Assembly: GCA_964473565.1 (NCBI GenBank)
Contig: CAYYPI010000001.1
Coordinates: 57,854 to 121,853 of the forward strand
Direction of reading: 5' to 3'
From: an uncultured Gammaproteobacteria bacterium
Lineage (GTDB): Bacteria; Patescibacteriota; Patescibacteriia; Patescibacteriales; UBA12465
DNA length: 64,000 bases
Notes under the pieces: model-generated
Database searches by the model: none
What the model was told of the DNA's origin: nothing
What the model saw: only the letters and a program-made list of their open reading frames with translations
In this document: positions 45,963 through 52,848 of the stretch, piece after piece
Position numbering within the stretch: position 1 is the first letter of the stretch
How the letters are laid out: each line of letters opens with the position of its first letter
Made by a program: the position numbers and the translations under genes

Positions 45963-48189
45963 GTTTCTTAAAATTTAAAGTTTAACTCCTGCCTCTCTTT
46001 TATAAAGATAGGTGGAATTTAAATTTTAAATGTACTTTGACATTTGAATAATAGAACCAATTAATTAAGTAAAAATAAAGTTTTTTCGTTCAAGATAAGA
46101 GCGTGGGAAAATCTCAACAAGAGTATACGGTGGATGCCTCGACATAAAAAGACGATGAAGGACGTAGCAGCCTGCGAAAAGCTTCGGTAAGGTGGCAAGC
46201 AACCTTTGACCCGAAGATTTCCGAATGGGGAAACCCGCCCTATTGAAGATAGGGCATGCCTTGAGTCAAATCAAGGCAGGAAGACCCGGTGAATTGAAAC
46301 ATCTTAGTAGCCGGAGGAAAAGAAAACAAACGTTTATTCCCTTAGTAGTGGCGAGCGAAAGGGGAAAAGCCTAAACTTTATAGACTGAGTTTAATGGATT
46401 TATCTACTTCGGTAGATAATGAAGTTAAACGGAAGGATTTGGGTCCACATGTTTATAGAGGGTTGTAAGAAAATTGTGTTTATCTCCCAAACAGATAAGG
46501 CAAAGTTACAAAAAACTATTTTTAACTAAATGAGCTGGAAAGCTCAGCCAGAGAAGGTGATAGCCCTGTAAGTGAAAAGAATAGTTTCTTTGCTGCAATT
46601 TTTCTTAAGTAGTGCGGAACACGTGAAATTCCGTATGAATCTGGGTCGACTATGATCCAAGGCTAAATACTTTTTATGATCAATAGTGAACTAGTACCGT
46701 GAGGGAAAGGTGAAAAGCATCCCGGTAAGGGAGGTGAAATAGTACCTGAAACCATATACTTACAAGGAGTCGGAGCCCATTTATGGGTGACGGCGTGCCT
46801 ATTGAAGAATGAGCCAACGAGTTTGTTCTATGTGGCTACATAAGTCCTAACAGGAAATATGTACAGTGAAAGCGAGGGTTAACTGCCCGTATATTTCACT
46901 TCCATTTAACGCCAATGTTAGTGTTAAGTGGAAGTGAAATCAGAGTCGCATGGACAAGACCCGAAGCCGGGTGATCTAGCCATGGCCAGGTTGAACTTTA
47001 GCGAAAGCTAAAGGGAGGACCGAACACACTAGTCGTGCAACACTAGGTGATGAGCTGTGGTTAGCGGTGAAATTCCAATCGAACTCGGCGATAGCTGGTT
47101 CTCCTCGAAATAGCTTTTGGGCTAGCCTCGGATGTTGACTACTGGAGGTAGAGCACTGAATGAGGGCGGGTCTTCGGATACCGTCTTTAACCAAACTCCG
47201 AATGCCAGTAGGTATAATCCGGGAGTTAGACTATGGGGGCTAAGCTCCATCAGTCGAAAGGGAAACAGCCCTAACCGCAATCTAAGGTCCCTAAATATAT
47301 GCTAAGTGTCAAAGGTGGTGTTGTGACTACGACAGTTAGGAGGTTGGCTTAGAAGCAGCCATCCTTTAAAGAAAGCGTAACAGCTCACTAACTAAGTTGT
47401 TTCGCGCCGAAAATTTATCGGGGCTAAAGCATATTACCGAAGCTGCGGATTCTAGAACTATGTTCTAGAGTGGTAGAGGAGCGTTCTGTTTAGCGTTGAA
47501 GTTGTGTCGTGAGGCACAGTGGAGCAGACAGAAGCGAGAATGTTGGCATGAGTAGCAAAAAGGCAGGTTAAAACCCTGCCCACCGAAAACCTAAGGTTTC
47601 CTGGGCAACGCAAATCGTCCCAGGGTTAGTCGGTCCTAAGGTCATGCCTGTGTAGTGCAGGCGCAGCCGATGGAAGAGCTGGTTAATATTCCAGCACTAC
47701 TGTTGTTTTCCGATGGGGGGACACGGTTTCAAAGTTCAAGCGCATTTAATGGTATGTGCGTTGCTTGCCTCAAGAAGCGATCTAGGCAAATCCGGATCAA
47801 TAGCTTTAAGAGGTCGGCAAGAGGTGAAGCCTTTGGTGGAACTGATTTGAGCATAGGAGCTGTCAAGAAAAACCTCTAGGGTTAATTCAACAGTAACCGT
47901 ACCGCAAACCGACACAGGTAGGTGAGGCGAGAAGCCTCAGGTGTACGAGAGAACCTTCGTTAAGGAACTCGGCAAAATAGCGGCCGTAATTTCGAGATAA
48001 GGCCTGCCCTGAGCAATCGGGGCCGCAGCTAAAGAGCTCGAGTGACTGTTTAGCAAAAACACAGCTCCCTGCTAACTCGAAAGAGGATGTATAGGGGGTG
48101 ACGCCTGGCCAGTGTCCGAACGTTAAGAGGAAGGGTTAGCTTTGGCAAAGCCCTGAATTCAAGCGCGGATGAACGCCGGCGATAACTAT

Positions 48190-48955
48190 GAAATGATTGT
48201 AGTTATAAAATTTGGCTATTTGCGGGAATATCCTGTTAAGTTAAGAGTACTAGTCTTTTAAAAGGCAGTAAAAATCTCTTAAATAACCCTAAGCAATTTA
48301 GGTACGGGACAATCCGCAGGAAAGACTCTAATAAAAAATTATATGACAGACAGTAAATGGCTTAAACAAGTAGATCCTGCTAAAGGTTATTACCTAGCTG
48401 GATTTGCTGACGGAGAAGGAAGCTTTAATGTCTCTTTAAGAAAGAGGGATGACCATACTATGGGTTGGCAAGTGGTACTTACATTTAATGTATCTCAAAG
48501 AGAGAGCCACATATTAGCCCAGTACAAAAGAATTTTAGGTTGTGGTCGCATACAAGAAAGATCAGATGGTCTTCACATGTATGTGGTTAGCAATCCTAAT
48601 GCGATTGTAGAAAAGGTCATACCTTTCTTTAAGCGCTTTAACTTCTTATCTCAAAGAAAAAAGCAAAATTTTTCTATCTTCTGCAAAATAACAGAATTAG
48701 TTTATTCTAAAGCTCATCTAAATAAAGATGGTTTAGAAGAAATTGTTAAATTGCGTGAAAAGTTAAATGAAGGAAAAGGTAGAAAAAGAAAATATAATCA
48801 AGAAGATGTTACTAAACATCTTAAAGAGAATCCTCAGAGACTACATGCCAAACAAAGACCTTTTCGTAATGAGAAGGCCTAGATGATATAGTCCGATCTC
48901 TATAGAGATATAGAGTGTTAATAAAGGTTGGCTTTATTAACTGTTAACATAAATG
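48190..48955 (+). mobile_element. group I intron 1 in 23S (after …AACTAT)
   Basis: exon sequence resumes at aatcgtcctaaggt; carries HEG ORF. Confidence 0.6.
48343..48882 (+). CDS. LAGLIDADG homing endonuclease (single-motif)
   Basis: LAGFADGEGSF motif; inside 23S intron. Confidence 0.8.
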   Translation: MTDSKWLKQVDPAKGYYLAGFADGEGSFNVSLRKRDDHTMGWQVVLTFNVSQRESHILAQYKRILGCGRIQERSDGLHMYVVSNPNAIVEKVIPFFKRFNFLSQRKKQNFSIFCKITELVYSKAHLNKDGLEEIVKLREKLNEGKGRKRKYNQEDVTKHLKENPQRLHAKQRPFRNEKA

Positions 48956-48969
48956 AATCGTCCTAAGGT

Positions 48970-49698
48970 TCTGCAGTTTAGAAGATCTAGACTGTGGAAG
49001 GCTAGGACGGTTCGTAAAATTCGCTGCCTAGCTATATGAAAATATAGTTGCCATAAAACACTCAGTAAAATGCGTGGAAATCTTCAAAAGATATTAAGTA
49101 CTAGACTGTTTGTAAAAATAGTCAGTAAAAATCTTAATATACAGGGAGGCAATACGCAGGATTATTATTTAATAATCCTCAGAGACTTAACACTGAGGTC
49201 TTAATTATATGATCATAAACAAAGATTGGGTATCAGGATTTGTTGATGGTGAAGGAACTTTTTATGTAGGGATTAATTATAATTCCACTATGACTAATAA
49301 AATACAGATTTTACCTGAATTTAGAATAGTTCAACATGAAAAGGATATAAAATTACTTTATGCTTTAAAAGATTTTTTTAAAGCAGGTGTTGTTAGAGTT
49401 AATCATGACAATAGGTATGAATTACGAGTCAGAAGACTACAACATTTATCAAGTATAATTATTCCTCACTTTCAAAAACATCCGTTAATAACTCAAAAAC
49501 AGTTTGATTTCATTAAATTTACTAAAATAGTAGAGTTAATGATAAAACAAAAACATTTAAACAAGGAAGAAATAATCAAAATTATTGATATTTCCTGTAA
49601 GATGAATAGACAGAATAAAGAAAAAGCCTTGAAAATAAAAGAAATGTTGTTAAGACAAGATAAAGTCCATACTTAATAGAAATATTAAGAGGGTATAG
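48970..49698 (+). mobile_element. group I intron 2 in 23S (site equivalent to E. coli ~1931, before AGCGAAATTCC)
   Basis: exon resumes agcgaaattccttgtcggg. Confidence 0.6.
49209..49676 (+). CDS. LAGLIDADG homing endonuclease (single-motif)
   Basis: VSGFVDGEGTFYV motif. Confidence 0.8.
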   Translation: MIINKDWVSGFVDGEGTFYVGINYNSTMTNKIQILPEFRIVQHEKDIKLLYALKDFFKAGVVRVNHDNRYELRVRRLQHLSSIIIPHFQKHPLITQKQFDFIKFTKIVELMIKQKHLNKEEIIKIIDISCKMNRQNKEKALKIKEMLLRQDKVHT

Positions 49699-50186
49699 AG
49701 CGAAATTCCTTGTCGGGTAAGTTCCGACGTGCACGAATGGCGCAACAACTTGAGCACTGTCTCAACGAAGGACTCGGCGAAATTGCATGACGAGTAAAGA
49801 TGCTCGTTAATCATAGTCGGACGAAAAGACCCCATGAAGCTTTACTACAACTTGATATTGAGTTAGGGGTACGCATGTTCAGTAATAGGTGGGAGACTCA
49901 CGTCACCAATGAGAGACCACCCTTGCGTGCTCTTAGCTCTGACTTGCTTAATTGCGAGGACAGTGTCTGGTGGGTAGTTTGTCTGGGGCGGATGCCTCAT
50001 AAAAAGTAACTGAGGCGTTTACAAAGGTTGGCTATCCCGGAATGGAAACCCGGGAGATAGCGTAAAGGCACAAGCCAGCTTTACTGCGAGACTTACTAGT
50101 CGAGCAGTTGCGAAAGCAGAACTTAGTGATCCGACCGTTCGATATAGGACGGCGGAAGCTCATCGGATAAAAGCTACTCTGGGGAT

Positions 50187-51961: not shown

Positions 51962-52054
51962 CGATGTCGGCTCGTCGCATCCTGGGGGTGAAGAAGCTCC
52001 CAAGGGTTGGGCTGTTCGCCCATTAAAGCGGCACGCGAGCTGGGTTCAGACCGT

Positions 52055-52358
52055 TTAGAAGCTAAATAATTTGTTTGGCTTTTAAACCCTCTGAATCCAG
52101 CACATAACAGACGTTACAAAATACGGCGGCATATCTGAGTAATCAGATATTGAGAAGTTGACTCATATCGGTGAAACCCTAATTCAAGGGCAATACCGAG
52201 GGAAGTCGCTTATATTAAATAGATATAAGTTGACCCCTTAGAGACTTCTTCCAATGATTGGAAGAGAGTGATGTTGATAAACATTGCTAACACGTCAACC
52301 CCCTAATAATTTAGGGTGATAGTATAGTCCATTACACTTGGTAACAAGTGATGATAAT
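52055..52358 (+). mobile_element. group I intron 5 in 23S, ORF-less
   Basis: exon junction gggttcagaccgt | gcgtaagacaggtcggtc; contains the same core element (ggtgaaaccct…gggcaataccgagggaagt) as introns 3 and 4. Confidence 0.5.
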
Positions 52359-52712
52359 GCGTAAGACAGGTCGGTCTCCTATCCACTATGATCGCGGAAA
52401 CTTGAGGAGTCCCTTCCCTAGTACGAGAGGACCGGGAAGGACGAAGCTCTAGTGTACCAGCTGTTCCACCAGGGGCATTGCTGGGTAGCTACCTTCGGTT
52501 TGGATAAGCGCTGAAAGCATATAAGCGCGAAGCCGTCTCCAAGATTAGGTTTCATAGGTTGGTCAGAGAATATGACCTTGATAGGCTCTAGGTGTAAGCG
52601 TAGCAATGCGCTCAGCCGAGGAGTACTAATAAACCGTTTGATTTTCCCACACTTTTGTGTTGAAGAGAAAATTTTATTGAACTTATTAATTGTTTTTCAG
52701 CATATAGAAAAA

Positions 52713-52848
52713 GACGCCATCGTTCTGGTGGTTCTAGCGAAGGGGTAACACCTGACTTCCATCCCGAACTCAGAAGTTAAGTCCTTCAGCGCCGATGATA
52801 CTTGGGTTTTGTACCCTGGGAAAGTAGGCCACCGCCAGAACAATGGCG
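52713..52848 (+). rRNA. rrf: 5S rRNA
   Basis: helix I gacgccatcgttctggtgg/ccaccgccagaacaatggcgt; CCGAACTCAGAAGTTAAG loop C region. Confidence 0.8.

What the first reader, a model, noticed from the sequence alone, without database searches (positions are those of the whole stretch)
46095..52848. 23S rRNA with five group I introns (four LAGLIDADG HEGs) and no adjacent 16S
- The 23S is split by about 3.4 kb of inserts; the intron coordinates are listed in the features.
- Introns 1-4 encode LAGLIDADG endonucleases: two single-motif and two double-motif.
- Intron 5 is ORF-less.
- Introns 3-5 share a core block (ggtgaaaccct…gggcaataccgtgggaagt) and a 3' gatatagtcc element, indicating one intron lineage spread to several sites.
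- Two introns sit only 14 nt apart, around E. coli positions ~1917 and ~1931.
- No 16S gene precedes the 23S within 46 kb of upstream sequence; the 23S is directly preceded by pilT and followed by 5S.
Basis: partly seen in the sequence, partly recalled or inferred. Interest (0 to 1): 0.55.

Follow-up and report, generated by a model that had tools for sequence, protein, structure and literature searches.

The report
Five group I introns in 23S
The large-subunit ribosomal RNA gene of an uncultured ultra-small (CPR/Patescibacteria) bacterium is split by five self-splicing-type introns, four carrying homing-endonuclease genes; this is real but is the usual state of rRNA genes in that group.

Summary
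The 23S gene (about 46103-52650) is interrupted at E. coli positions 1917, 1931, 2449, 2500 and 2593. The inserts are 766, 729, 913, 811 and 305 nt (3,524 nt in total). Removing them gives a 3,006-nt rRNA colinear with intron-less 23S genes of relatives across every junction.

All five inserts have a group I core, and a guide sequence with G opposite the last exon U. Four also have an adjacent P10. Introns 1-2 encode single-motif LAGLIDADG_1 enzymes. Introns 3-4 encode two-motif I-SceI-like LAGLIDADG_2 enzymes. Intron 5 has no ORF. There is no 16S in the window.

The host is a Falkowbacteria-like CPR bacterium. pilT-23S-5S without 16S is conserved across the clade, and intron content varies from 0 to 5. 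Published surveys report inserts in 82% of CPR 23S genes, so this is a new member of a known kind.

The "one lineage spread to several sites" inference fails: each intron matches same-site introns elsewhere.

Two extras:
- Intron 4 ends in A, not G, as do 24 of 85 sampled L2500 introns.
- A conserved 13-codon leader ORF with an antiterminator/terminator switch lies upstream of the 23S.

The parts
45814..45841 (+). Perfect sigma-70-type promoter (TTGACA-N16-TATAAT), the likely main promoter of the 23S-5S unit
   Evidence: 12/12 consensus match. The hexamers are invariant in the six-sequence alignment, and the consensus promoter is found in 35 of 37 pilT-linked relatives scanned.
45871..45912 (+). 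13-codon leader ORF (MINLSSILNRLSG*) whose last codons and stop lie on the 5' strand of an antiterminator
   Evidence: In 62 of 68 distinct leaders the first ATG opens a 12-19-codon ORF that stops 5-11 nt after the start of the GCGG anchor. Control frames give 1/68 and 0/68. Translation is inferred, not shown.
45904..45965 (+). Antiterminator/terminator switch: AGCGG (45904-45908) can pair with CCGCT (45942-45946), which is otherwise the 5' arm of the hairpin plus T-run at 45939-45965
   Evidence: Terminator scan. The nascent-RNA fold pairs the two segments in all 34 leaders: the script counted 29, and the other five show the same pairing by inspection of their folds. The terminator is conserved.
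46025..46052 (+). Region resembling rrn boxA (CTTTGACATTTGAATAAT), with a weak second promoter match
   Evidence: 9/12 promoter match. CTTTAACAATT is conserved in relatives. The resemblance to E. coli boxA is from memory and was not tested.
46103..46113 (+). 5' strand of the 23S end stem (GTGGGAAAATC), complementary to 52640-52650
   Evidence: Read directly from the sequence. Conserved in relatives.
46111..48189 (+). 23S exon 1 (E. coli about 1-1917)
48190..48955 (+). Intron 1, group I, site L1917, 766 nt, ends in G
   Evidence: P1 AUAACUAU/GUAGUUAU (8 bp, U.G at the splice site) and adjacent P10 of 6 bp. Rfam RF00028 35.3 bits, E 6e-7. 79% identical over 767 nt to the L1917 intron of L024.
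48343..48882 (+). Homing endonuclease gene 1, 179 aa, single LAGLIDADG motif (LAGFADGEG)
   Evidence: PF00961, 67.5 bits. Matches each half of I-SmaMI/I-OnuI, E 6e-40.
48956..48969 (+). 14-nt exon 2 (AAUCGUCCUAAGGU, E. coli 1918-1931, 3' strand of helix 69)
   Evidence: Identical in intron-less relatives. The changes relative to E. coli are compensated in the 5' strand (GGCGA/UCGUC).
48970..49698 (+). Intron 2, group I, site L1931, 729 nt, ends in G
   Evidence: IGS UUCGCU|GCCU at 49020-49029, giving P10 of 6 bp plus P1 of 4 bp. Rfam core hits 22.7 and 17.3 bits on either side of the ORF. 73% identical over 725 nt to the L1931 intron of L074.
49209..49676 (+). Homing endonuclease gene 2, 155 aa, single motif (VSGFVDGEG), in the P8 loop
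   Evidence: PF00961, 88 bits. PDB 5gkk E 6e-47.
49699..50186 (+). 23S exon 3 (E. coli 1932-2449)
50187..51099 (+). Intron 3, group I, site L2449 (the site of the yeast mitochondrial omega intron), 913 nt, ends in G
   Evidence: P1 UGGGGAU/GUCCCUA, 7 bp. Rfam 29.6 bits, E 4.5e-5. 79% identical over 690 nt to the L2449 intron of L024.
50332..50958 (+). Homing endonuclease gene 3, 208 aa, two motifs (ILGDGY, WYMDDG), I-SceI-like
   Evidence: PF03161, 122 bits. I-SceI E 4e-10 over the full length.
51100..51150 (+). 23S exon 4 (51 nt, E. coli 2450-2500)
51151..51961 (+). Intron 4, group I, site L2500, 811 nt, ends in A instead of the canonical omega-G
   Evidence: P1 GCACCU/GGGUGC and adjacent P10 CGAUGU/AUAUCG. 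The boundaries cannot be shifted. Rfam 37.6 bits. An ORF-less homologue, L111, is 79-85% identical and also ends in A.
51242..51823 (+). Homing endonuclease gene 4, 193 aa, two motifs (ILGDGY, WYMDDG), in P5/P6
   Evidence: PF03161, 121 bits. I-SceI family E 1e-9.
51962..52054 (+). 23S exon 5 (93 nt, E. coli 2501-2593)
52055..52359 (+). Intron 5, group I, site L2593, 305 nt, no ORF, ends in G
   Evidence: Rfam 46.2 bits, E 4.6e-10, full model. IGS UACG|GCGG. 21 of 60 consensus pairs show compensatory changes in six homologues.
52360..52650 (+). 23S exon 6, including the 3' strand of the end stem (52640-52650)
52724..52840 (+). 5S rRNA
   Evidence: RF00001, 86.6 bits.
52833..52855 (+). Terminator-like hairpin plus T-run ending the unit

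Best explanation
This is the 23S-5S rRNA transcription unit of a Falkowbacteria-like CPR (Patescibacteria) bacterium. The 23S gene carries five mobile group I introns at the classic LSU sites L1917, L1931, L2449, L2500 and L2593.

Inferred from the established mechanism. After transcription each intron folds into the P3-P9 ribozyme core. Its internal guide sequence pairs with the last nucleotides of the upstream exon (P1, G opposite the terminal U) and with the first nucleotides of the downstream exon (P10). An external guanosine bound in P7 opens the 5' splice site, and the freed exon end attacks the 3' splice site. The product is a continuous 3,006-nt 23S rRNA.

The four LAGLIDADG proteins presumably cut intron-less alleles at the same rRNA sites. 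Two would act as homodimers and two as I-SceI-like monomers. Repair from an intron-bearing copy then copies the intron in (homing). That would explain the patchy presence of the same introns among related genomes.

The 16S gene lies elsewhere, as is usual in this phylum.

Shown here: the sequence anatomy, exact junctions, protein families, and the comparative presence/absence pattern. Inferred: splicing in vivo and endonuclease activity.
For: - Junctions: the spliced sequence is colinear with six intron-less relatives at all five junctions, including the peptidyl-transferase-centre residues.
- Splice-site pairings: all five introns have a P1 with G opposite the terminal exon U, and four have an adjacent P10.
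- Core matches: RF00028 matches with E from 4.6e-10 to 4e-3 (plus a 0.14 fragment for I2) cover the cores of all five.
- Covariation: 21 of 60 pairs covary in the L2593 family. The P7 262:312 pair covaries (G-C versus A-U) in the L2500 family.
- Proteins: Pfam scores sit well above the cut-offs, there is full-length similarity to solved homing endonucleases, and the catalytic D/E is present in every motif (translations).
- Same-site homologues: each intron has a 71-85% identical counterpart at the same site in other genomes, and relatives carry 0-5 of them.
- Host and synteny: PilT relatives are Falkowbacteria/Patescibacteria with pilT-23S-5S-(glmM)-glmU and no 16S.
- Literature: 82% of CPR 23S genes carry inserts, 45% of them group I, mostly with LAGLIDADG genes, at sites including 1917, 1931 and 2593, and they are removed from transcripts (PMC11270868). 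Unlinked rRNA genes are reported in Patescibacteria (bioRxiv 10.1101/705046).
Against: - No expression data exist for this organism.
- None of the five introns reaches Rfam's gathering score of 50 bits (best 46.2).
- Intron 4 ends in A, which in the Tetrahymena ribozyme would cripple exon ligation.
- P1 of introns 2 and 5 is only 4 bp. Intron 5 also has an alternative long hairpin that pairs the splice-site U with A in 5 of 6 homologues.
- The public NCBI contig of the same organism stops at window 50179, 7 nt before intron 3. The part of the window carrying introns 3-5 therefore comes from another assembly path and could represent a co-occurring strain.
Confidence: 0.85

Rival explanations
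1. One or more of the inserts, above all intron 4 with its terminal A, is a decaying or unspliced group I intron. It would either stay in the mature rRNA (as reported for the L1931 intron of Simkania) or make this gene copy non-functional.
For: Intron 4 lacks omega-G. [quoted passage not shown]'. All Rfam scores are below the gathering threshold.
Against: - The core of intron 4 and its 193-aa ORF are intact.
- A terminal A is shared by 24 of 85 sampled L2500 introns from many phyla, which excludes a private mutation or sequencing error.
- A Coxiella intron lacking omega-G is described as self-splicing in the title of ref 29 in PMC11270868.
- An 811-nt insert retained between U2500 and C2501 in the peptidyl-transferase loop is hard to reconcile with a working ribosome.
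- Exon sequences are perfectly conserved.
Confidence: 0.08
2. The inserts are intervening sequences removed by RNase III without ligation, leaving a fragmented 23S rRNA.
For: Such IVSs occur in 23S genes of reduced-genome bacteria and probably in CPR (PMC11270868). An RNase III gene lies just upstream (43949-44641).
Against: - The inserts have group I cores, guide sequences and P10, not the long terminal stems of IVSs.
- They sit at group I homing sites in domains IV and V, not at the helix 9/25/45 IVS sites.
- Four encode homing endonucleases, not IVS proteins.
Confidence: 0.03
3. The five-intron gene is an assembly chimera: conserved 23S exons let the assembler join pieces from different co-occurring strains or species, so no single genome has all five introns.
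For: The NCBI contig of this organism is 100% identical to window 34635-50179 and ends 7 nt before intron 3. This is typical of an assembly-graph branch at a polymorphic insertion.
Against: - The flanks fit one genome: GC is 30.9% upstream and 31.5% downstream.
- The order pilT-23S-5S-glmM-glmU is the conserved synteny of the clade.
- Relatives independently carry combinations such as L1917+L1931+L2593 (L082) and L1917+L2449+L2593, plus one further insert near position 1951, in L024.
Confidence: 0.05

Closest known systems
[quoted passage not shown] 2015 as cited; Tsurumaki et al. 2024, PMC11270868)
   Same: Same host group. Same kind of insert: group I with LAGLIDADG_1 of about 180 aa or LAGLIDADG_2 of about 210 aa. 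Same bias towards the 3' half of the 23S. Same named sites 1917, 1931 and 2593. Several inserts per gene.
   Different: Nothing essential. The total insert length (3.5 kb) is about 2 SD above their mean (1,327 +/- 1,112 nt) but below their maximum (5,750 nt). Five inserts is below their maximum of 16.
Coxiella burnetii 23S rRNA gene (Cbu.L1917 and Cbu.L1951; Raghavan et al. 2007, title seen)
   Same: Two group I introns flank a very short exon (34 nt there, 14 nt here). One intron lacks omega-G. An L1917 intron is present.
   Different: Here the partner of L1917 is L1931, and the intron without omega-G is the one at L2500. From memory, not checked here: in Coxiella it is L1917 that ends in A.
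Synechococcus sp. C9 LSU rRNA gene with three HEG-containing group I introns (Haugen et al. 2007, PMC1995217)
   Same: Multiple group I introns with single-motif LAGLIDADG genes in one bacterial 23S gene. A patchy distribution that suggests horizontal transfer.
   Different: Three introns there against five here. No two-motif I-SceI-like genes are reported in that abstract.
Yeast mitochondrial LSU omega intron with I-SceI (site L2449), and chloroplast Cr.LSU with I-CreI (site L2593)
   Same: Same rRNA insertion sites (from established knowledge). The protein of intron 3 is an I-SceI homologue over its full length.
   Different: The L2593 intron here has no endonuclease gene. Identity to I-SceI is low (E about 1e-10).
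Unlinked rRNA genes (Brewer et al., bioRxiv 10.1101/705046)
   Same: The 23S-5S unit is separate from the 16S. Patescibacteria are listed among clades with mostly or only unlinked rRNA genes.
   Different: None.

Membership tests
Group I intron | The 5' exon ends in U, paired with G of an internal guide sequence (P1) | tested here: met
   All five meet it. P1 is 8, 4, 7, 6 and 4 bp for I1 to I5. The weakest cases are I2 and I5.
Group I intron | Conserved catalytic core P3-P9 with the P, Q, R and S elements | tested here: met
   RF00028 local alignments cover the core of each intron. Covariation supports P3-P6, P8 and P9 in the L2593 family and P7 in the L2500 family.
Group I intron | Score at or above the Rfam RF00028 gathering threshold (50 bits) | tested here: not met
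   46.2 (I5), 37.6 (I4), 35.3 (I1), 29.6 (I3), and 22.7 plus 17.3 (I2). The large ORFs inside P5/P6/P8 split the matches.
Group I intron | The intron ends in guanosine (omega-G) | tested here: inconclusive
   Met by I1, I2, I3 and I5. Not met by I4, which ends in A.
Group I intron | G-binding G-C pair in P7 | tested here: met
   GACU in the R element opposite AGUC in the S element in all five introns and in all 24 aligned L2500 introns, including those ending in A.
Group I intron | Self-splicing with guanosine cofactor | not testable with these tools
   Needs in vitro transcription and splicing, or RNA data.
LAGLIDADG homing endonuclease | Pfam PF00961 or PF03161 above the curated cut-off | tested here: met
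   67.5, 88.0, 122.3 and 121.4 bits against cut-offs of 23.1 and 25.
LAGLIDADG homing endonuclease | Acidic catalytic residue closing each LAGLIDADG motif | tested here: met
   GEG in ORFs 1 and 2. GDG and DDG in ORFs 3 and 4, as in I-SceI (translations; alignment).
LAGLIDADG homing endonuclease | Cleaves the intron-less target site | not testable with these tools
   Needs a cleavage assay on the intron-less alleles, for example the sequences of L028 or L046.
CPR rRNA insertion sequences (Tsurumaki 2024) | The host belongs to CPR/Patescibacteria | tested here: met
   The closest PilT and 23S relatives are Falkowbacteria, Parcubacteria and Patescibacteria MAGs.
CPR rRNA insertion sequences (Tsurumaki 2024) | Insertion at the recurrent 23S sites | tested here: met
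   1917, 1931 and 2593 are named in the paper. 2449 and 2500 are not named in the text I could read, but L2500 introns are frequent in CPR genomes.
RNase III-processed intervening sequence (IVS) | Short insert in helix 9, 25 or 45 closed by a long stem, excised without ligation | tested here: not met
   The inserts are at 1917-2593 and have group I cores. The extra 22-66-nt segments at about E. coli 270, 290 and 650 are shared with nearly all intron-less relatives and are lineage expansions.
Unlinked rRNA genes | 16S and 23S are not adjacent | tested here: met
   No SSU rRNA in the window (46 kb upstream, 11 kb downstream). None in up to 10 kb either side of pilT in relatives.

The most novel reading that the evidence does not exclude
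Intron 4 belongs to a large natural class of L2500 group I introns that end in adenosine instead of the 'universal' omega-G yet keep a canonical G-binding site. If they splice accurately, omega-A is not a Coxiella curiosity. It would be a recurrent, tolerated state: 24 of 85 sampled L2500 introns (the window's included), against almost none at other sites. The second step of group I splicing could then proceed without omega-G in many lineages.
Probability: 0.5. Interest if true: 0.5.

Novelty: new member of a known kind. Interest (0 to 1): 0.27.

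Why it matters
The intron-laden, unlinked 23S gene adds one more example to a documented CPR trait, so by itself it matters little. It is useful as a well-resolved case:
- exact junctions;
- guide sequences;
- a 14-nt exon used by two ribozymes at once (nt 1-6 in P10 of intron 1, nt 11-14 in P1 of intron 2);
- four apparently intact endonucleases with intron-less target alleles available in relatives.

Two by-products could matter more.

First, the A-ending L2500 introns offer a natural system for asking how exon ligation works without omega-G.

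Second, the conserved leader in front of the 23S gene combines a perfect promoter, a frame-conserved 13-codon ORF ending on an antiterminator strand, and an intrinsic terminator. If translation of the ORF decides termination, it would link ribosome availability directly to rRNA transcription. That would be a concrete form of the old 'ribosome feedback' idea.

Tried and rejected
- Rfam's own LSU coordinates (46111-50222 for model 1-2925) were rejected, because the global alignment is forced across the inserts.
- A 7-bp pairing CGUCCUA/UAGGACG (49003-49009) was considered as P1 of intron 2. It was set aside because it leaves the splice-site U unpaired and has no adjacent P10. The GCCU plus UUCGCU guide at 49020-49029 fits better.
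- Shifted splice sites that would give intron 4 a terminal G were examined. All would delete or add nucleotides in the invariant CCUCGAUGU sequence.
- A change of the G-binding pair correlated with omega-A was looked for and not found.
- 'One lineage spread to several sites' was rejected.
- Literature dead ends: the Raghavan 2007 full text is not held, the supplement search gave nothing, and two searches were uninformative.
- For the leader, RNAalifold recovered only the terminator, and a codon-position entropy test showed no 3-nt periodicity. The frame-conservation test was the informative one.
- A copy of the leader upstream of a 16S gene was looked for in the final genome-contig scan and not found.

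Full report
**What is there**

Rfam finds a bacterial LSU rRNA starting at 46111 and a 5S rRNA at 52724-52840. It finds no SSU rRNA anywhere in the 64 kb. Its LSU end coordinate (50222) is an artefact of stretching the model over large inserts.

I fetched an E. coli 23S and calibrated its numbering on landmark motifs. This copy runs 2-3 nt behind K-12 numbering. Local alignments split the gene into six colinear pieces. The exons are:
- 46111-48189
- 48956-48969
- 49699-50186
- 51100-51150
- 51962-52054
- 52360-52640

An 11-bp end stem (46103-46113 with 52640-52650) closes the gene. The inserts are:

| Intron | Coordinates | Site | Length |
|---|---|---|---|
| I1 | 48190-48955 | after U1917 | 766 nt |
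| I2 | 48970-49698 | after U1931 | 729 nt |
| I3 | 50187-51099 | after U2449 | 913 nt |
| I4 | 51151-51961 | after U2500 | 811 nt |
| I5 | 52055-52359 | after U2593 | 305 nt |

They total 3,524 nt.

**Are the junctions right?**

A scan for relatives of the upstream PilT protein returned 80 loci from Falkowbacteria, Parcubacteria and Patescibacteria MAGs. Several carry wrong taxonomic labels. In most of them a 23S gene follows pilT directly.

Six have uninterrupted 23S genes. Aligned with my spliced sequence, they are colinear and almost identical across all five junctions. This includes the 14-nt exon AAUCGUCCUAAGGU, whose differences from E. coli are compensated in the other strand of helix 69.

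Four junctions cannot be shifted by even one base. At L2449 a one-base shift is possible by sequence, and the U/G rule selects U2449.

Other length differences from E. coli (22-66 nt near positions 270, 290, 650 and 1484) are shared with nearly all the intron-less relatives. They are lineage expansions, not inserts.

**Are they group I introns?**

All five carry the P, Q, R and S core elements.

RF00028 matches the cores with these scores:
- I5: E 4.6e-10 (46.2 bits, full model)
- I4: 1.7e-7
- I1: 6e-7
- I3: 4.5e-5
- I2: 4e-3 plus 0.14, on either side of the ORF

None reaches the 50-bit gathering score. The ORFs sit inside P5/P6/P8 and overlap core strands.

Each intron has a guide sequence with G opposite the last exon U. 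Four have a P10 directly next to it:

| Intron | P1 | P10 |
|---|---|---|
| I1 | 8 bp | 6 bp |
| I2 | 4 bp | 6 bp |
| I3 | 7 bp | none convincing (1 bp) |
| I4 | 6 bp | 6 bp |
| I5 | 4 bp | 4 bp |

The 14-nt exon is used by both neighbours without overlap: nt 1-6 form P10 of I1 and nt 11-14 form P1 of I2.

Six L2593 introns (the window's plus five relatives) give a consensus fold with P3, P4, P5, P6, P8, P9 and P10. Compensatory changes occur in 21 of 60 pairs.

In 24 L2500 introns the P7 pair equivalent to Tetrahymena 262:312 switches between G-C and A-U, while the G-binding G-C pair stays invariant.

**The proteins**

ORFs 1 and 2 are PF00961 with one motif each (LAGFADGEG, VSGFVDGEG). ORFs 3 and 4 are PF03161 with two motifs each (ILGDGY and WYMDDG).

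ORFs 3 and 4 align over their full length with I-SceI. ORF 3 sits at the I-SceI site. ORFs 1 and 2 match single halves of I-OnuI/I-SmaMI-type enzymes and small homodimeric enzymes.

**One lineage or five?**

Within the window the introns share only 21-23-nt core blocks. Each intron instead aligns at 71-85% identity with introns at the same site in other genomes:
- I1 with L024: 767 nt, 79%
- I2 with L074: 725 nt, 73%
- I3 with L024: 690 nt, 79%
- I4 with the ORF-less L111: 79-85%
- I5 with L039: 77-82%

The endonuclease pairs are 29-31% identical. Introns 3-5 belong to one structural subgroup, but they are separate site-specific lineages.

**Context**

pilT-23S-5S-(glmM)-glmU without a 16S is the conserved arrangement of the clade.

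Intron content varies among relatives:
- none: about a dozen genomes
- L1931 only
- L2593 only
- L1917+L1931+L2593 in L082, with the same 14-nt exon
- L1917+L2449+L2593, plus one further insert near position 1951, in L024

This is the pattern expected from homing and loss.

The literature already describes all of it:
- Inserts occur in 82% of CPR 23S genes, up to 16 per gene and up to 5,750 nt in total.
- 45% of them are recognised as group I.
- They are biased to the 3' half of the gene.
- LAGLIDADG_1 genes sit at 1917, 1931, 1952, 2593 and other sites.
- The inserts are removed from transcripts (PMC11270868).

Unlinked rRNA genes are reported for Patescibacteria. Hence the verdict: a new member of a known kind.

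**A caveat on assembly**

The NCBI contig of this organism is 100% identical to window 34635-50179 and ends there, 7 nt before intron 3. The window therefore follows another assembly path through introns 3-5.

Equal GC content on both sides and the conserved downstream synteny argue against a gross mis-join. Strain-level polymorphism for introns 3-5 remains possible.

**Intron 4 lacks omega-G**

The intron reads ...GGAAUGAUACA|CGAUGUCGG. P1 and P10 abut on the guide AUAUCG|GGGUGC, which fixes the 3' splice site before C2501.

With four earlier loci and the window's own intron, 85 L2500 inserts were delimited that have a group I S element. Of these, 61 end in G and 24 end in A.

The A-ending introns come from many Patescibacteria, and also from MAGs labelled Planctomycetota. 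Some carry endonuclease-sized inserts. They fall into at least two core types, each with G-ending close relatives.

At the other sites in the same loci nearly all delimited introns end in G. One exception is an A-ending L1917 intron in L044. That recalls Coxiella, whose paper title states that one element lacks the canonical omega-G. From memory, it is Cbu.L1917, it ends in A, and it still self-splices.

**Seen in passing: the leader**

Between pilT and the 23S lies a perfect promoter (45814-45841). It is followed by an ATG at 45871 that opens a 13-codon ORF, and by a hairpin plus T-run at 45939-45965.

The layout is conserved in the pilT-linked relatives. The last codons and stop (AGC GGT TAA, or in the other frame AAG CGG TTA TAA) are the complement of the terminator's 5' arm.

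In all 34 leaders folded, the RNA made before the terminator's 3' arm exists pairs these two segments around a variable inner hairpin. The script counted 29, and the other five show the same pairing by inspection of their folds. This structure is an antiterminator.

A motif scan found the element 46 times next to a 23S gene, in Paceibacteria, Moraniibacteriota and others. All 39 hits that carry the consensus promoter and mini-ORF belong to that set. None was next to a 16S. The other 74 hits were promoter-less chance terminators in unrelated bacteria.

Among 68 distinct leaders, 62 keep the first ATG in frame with a stop 5-11 nt after the start of the GCGG anchor. In the other two frames the counts are 1 and 0. 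Two frame classes each have their own stop position.

That is good evidence that the ORF is translated. My inference is that a ribosome finishing the ORF covers the antiterminator strand, the terminator then forms, and 23S transcription from this promoter falls when ribosomes are free.

Rfam has no family there, and one literature search found no description. This is untested and lies outside the finding's coordinates.

Noticed in passing
window 45814-45965 (and about 46025-46052): Conserved 23S leader: a perfect sigma-70 promoter, then a 13-codon ORF whose final codons and stop form the 5' strand of an antiterminator, then an intrinsic terminator, then a boxA-like element. The same layout appears in 68 distinct Patescibacteria leaders, always upstream of 23S and never 16S. 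The reading frame is kept in 62 of 68, against 0-1 of 68 in the control frames. This may be a translation-coupled attenuator of rRNA transcription. No Rfam family matches.
   Followed up: partly
window 51961; loci L083, L085, L092, L105, L110, L111, L114, L130 and others: Intron 4 and 23 other sampled L2500 group I introns (24 of 85) end in A instead of omega-G, while keeping the G-C guanosine-binding pair in P7. G-ending and A-ending introns are interleaved among core types.
   Followed up: partly
window 50179; L002 (NCBI JBKHAF010000006.1): The public contig of the same organism is identical to the window up to 50179 and ends there, 7 nt before the intron 3 insertion site. This suggests an assembly-graph branch, possibly a presence/absence polymorphism of introns in the population.
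   Followed up: partly
window 52039-52104: The 5' end of intron 5 forms a long hairpin with the upstream exon (GCUGGGUUCAGA..GU with AC..UCUGAAUCCAGC), with compensatory changes in relatives. It pairs the splice-site U2593 with A in 5 of 6 homologues and competes with the canonical 4-bp P1 (GCGG). Its role is unclear; it may be an alternative or pre-catalytic P1.
   Followed up: partly
L044:14240-14739; L102 and L194 (L1931 inserts): A 500-nt L1917 insert in a relative ends in A, as the Coxiella L1917 intron is reported to. Two L1931 inserts end in C or A with a shared ...GAATAAGA... tail. These may be further exceptions to omega-G, or mis-delimited inserts.
   Followed up: no
window 15893-16278: tmRNA gene (tag peptide ANKLASKATFAWKVPSFAPVAA) followed by tRNA-Leu and tRNA-Gly. 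Ordinary.
   Followed up: no
window 46373-46523 and 46884-46944: 23S expansion segments of 22-66 nt relative to E. coli (near positions 270, 290 and 650), shared with nearly all intron-less relatives. Several 20-25-nt deletions also occur elsewhere. These are lineage-typical rRNA remodelling.
   Followed up: partly
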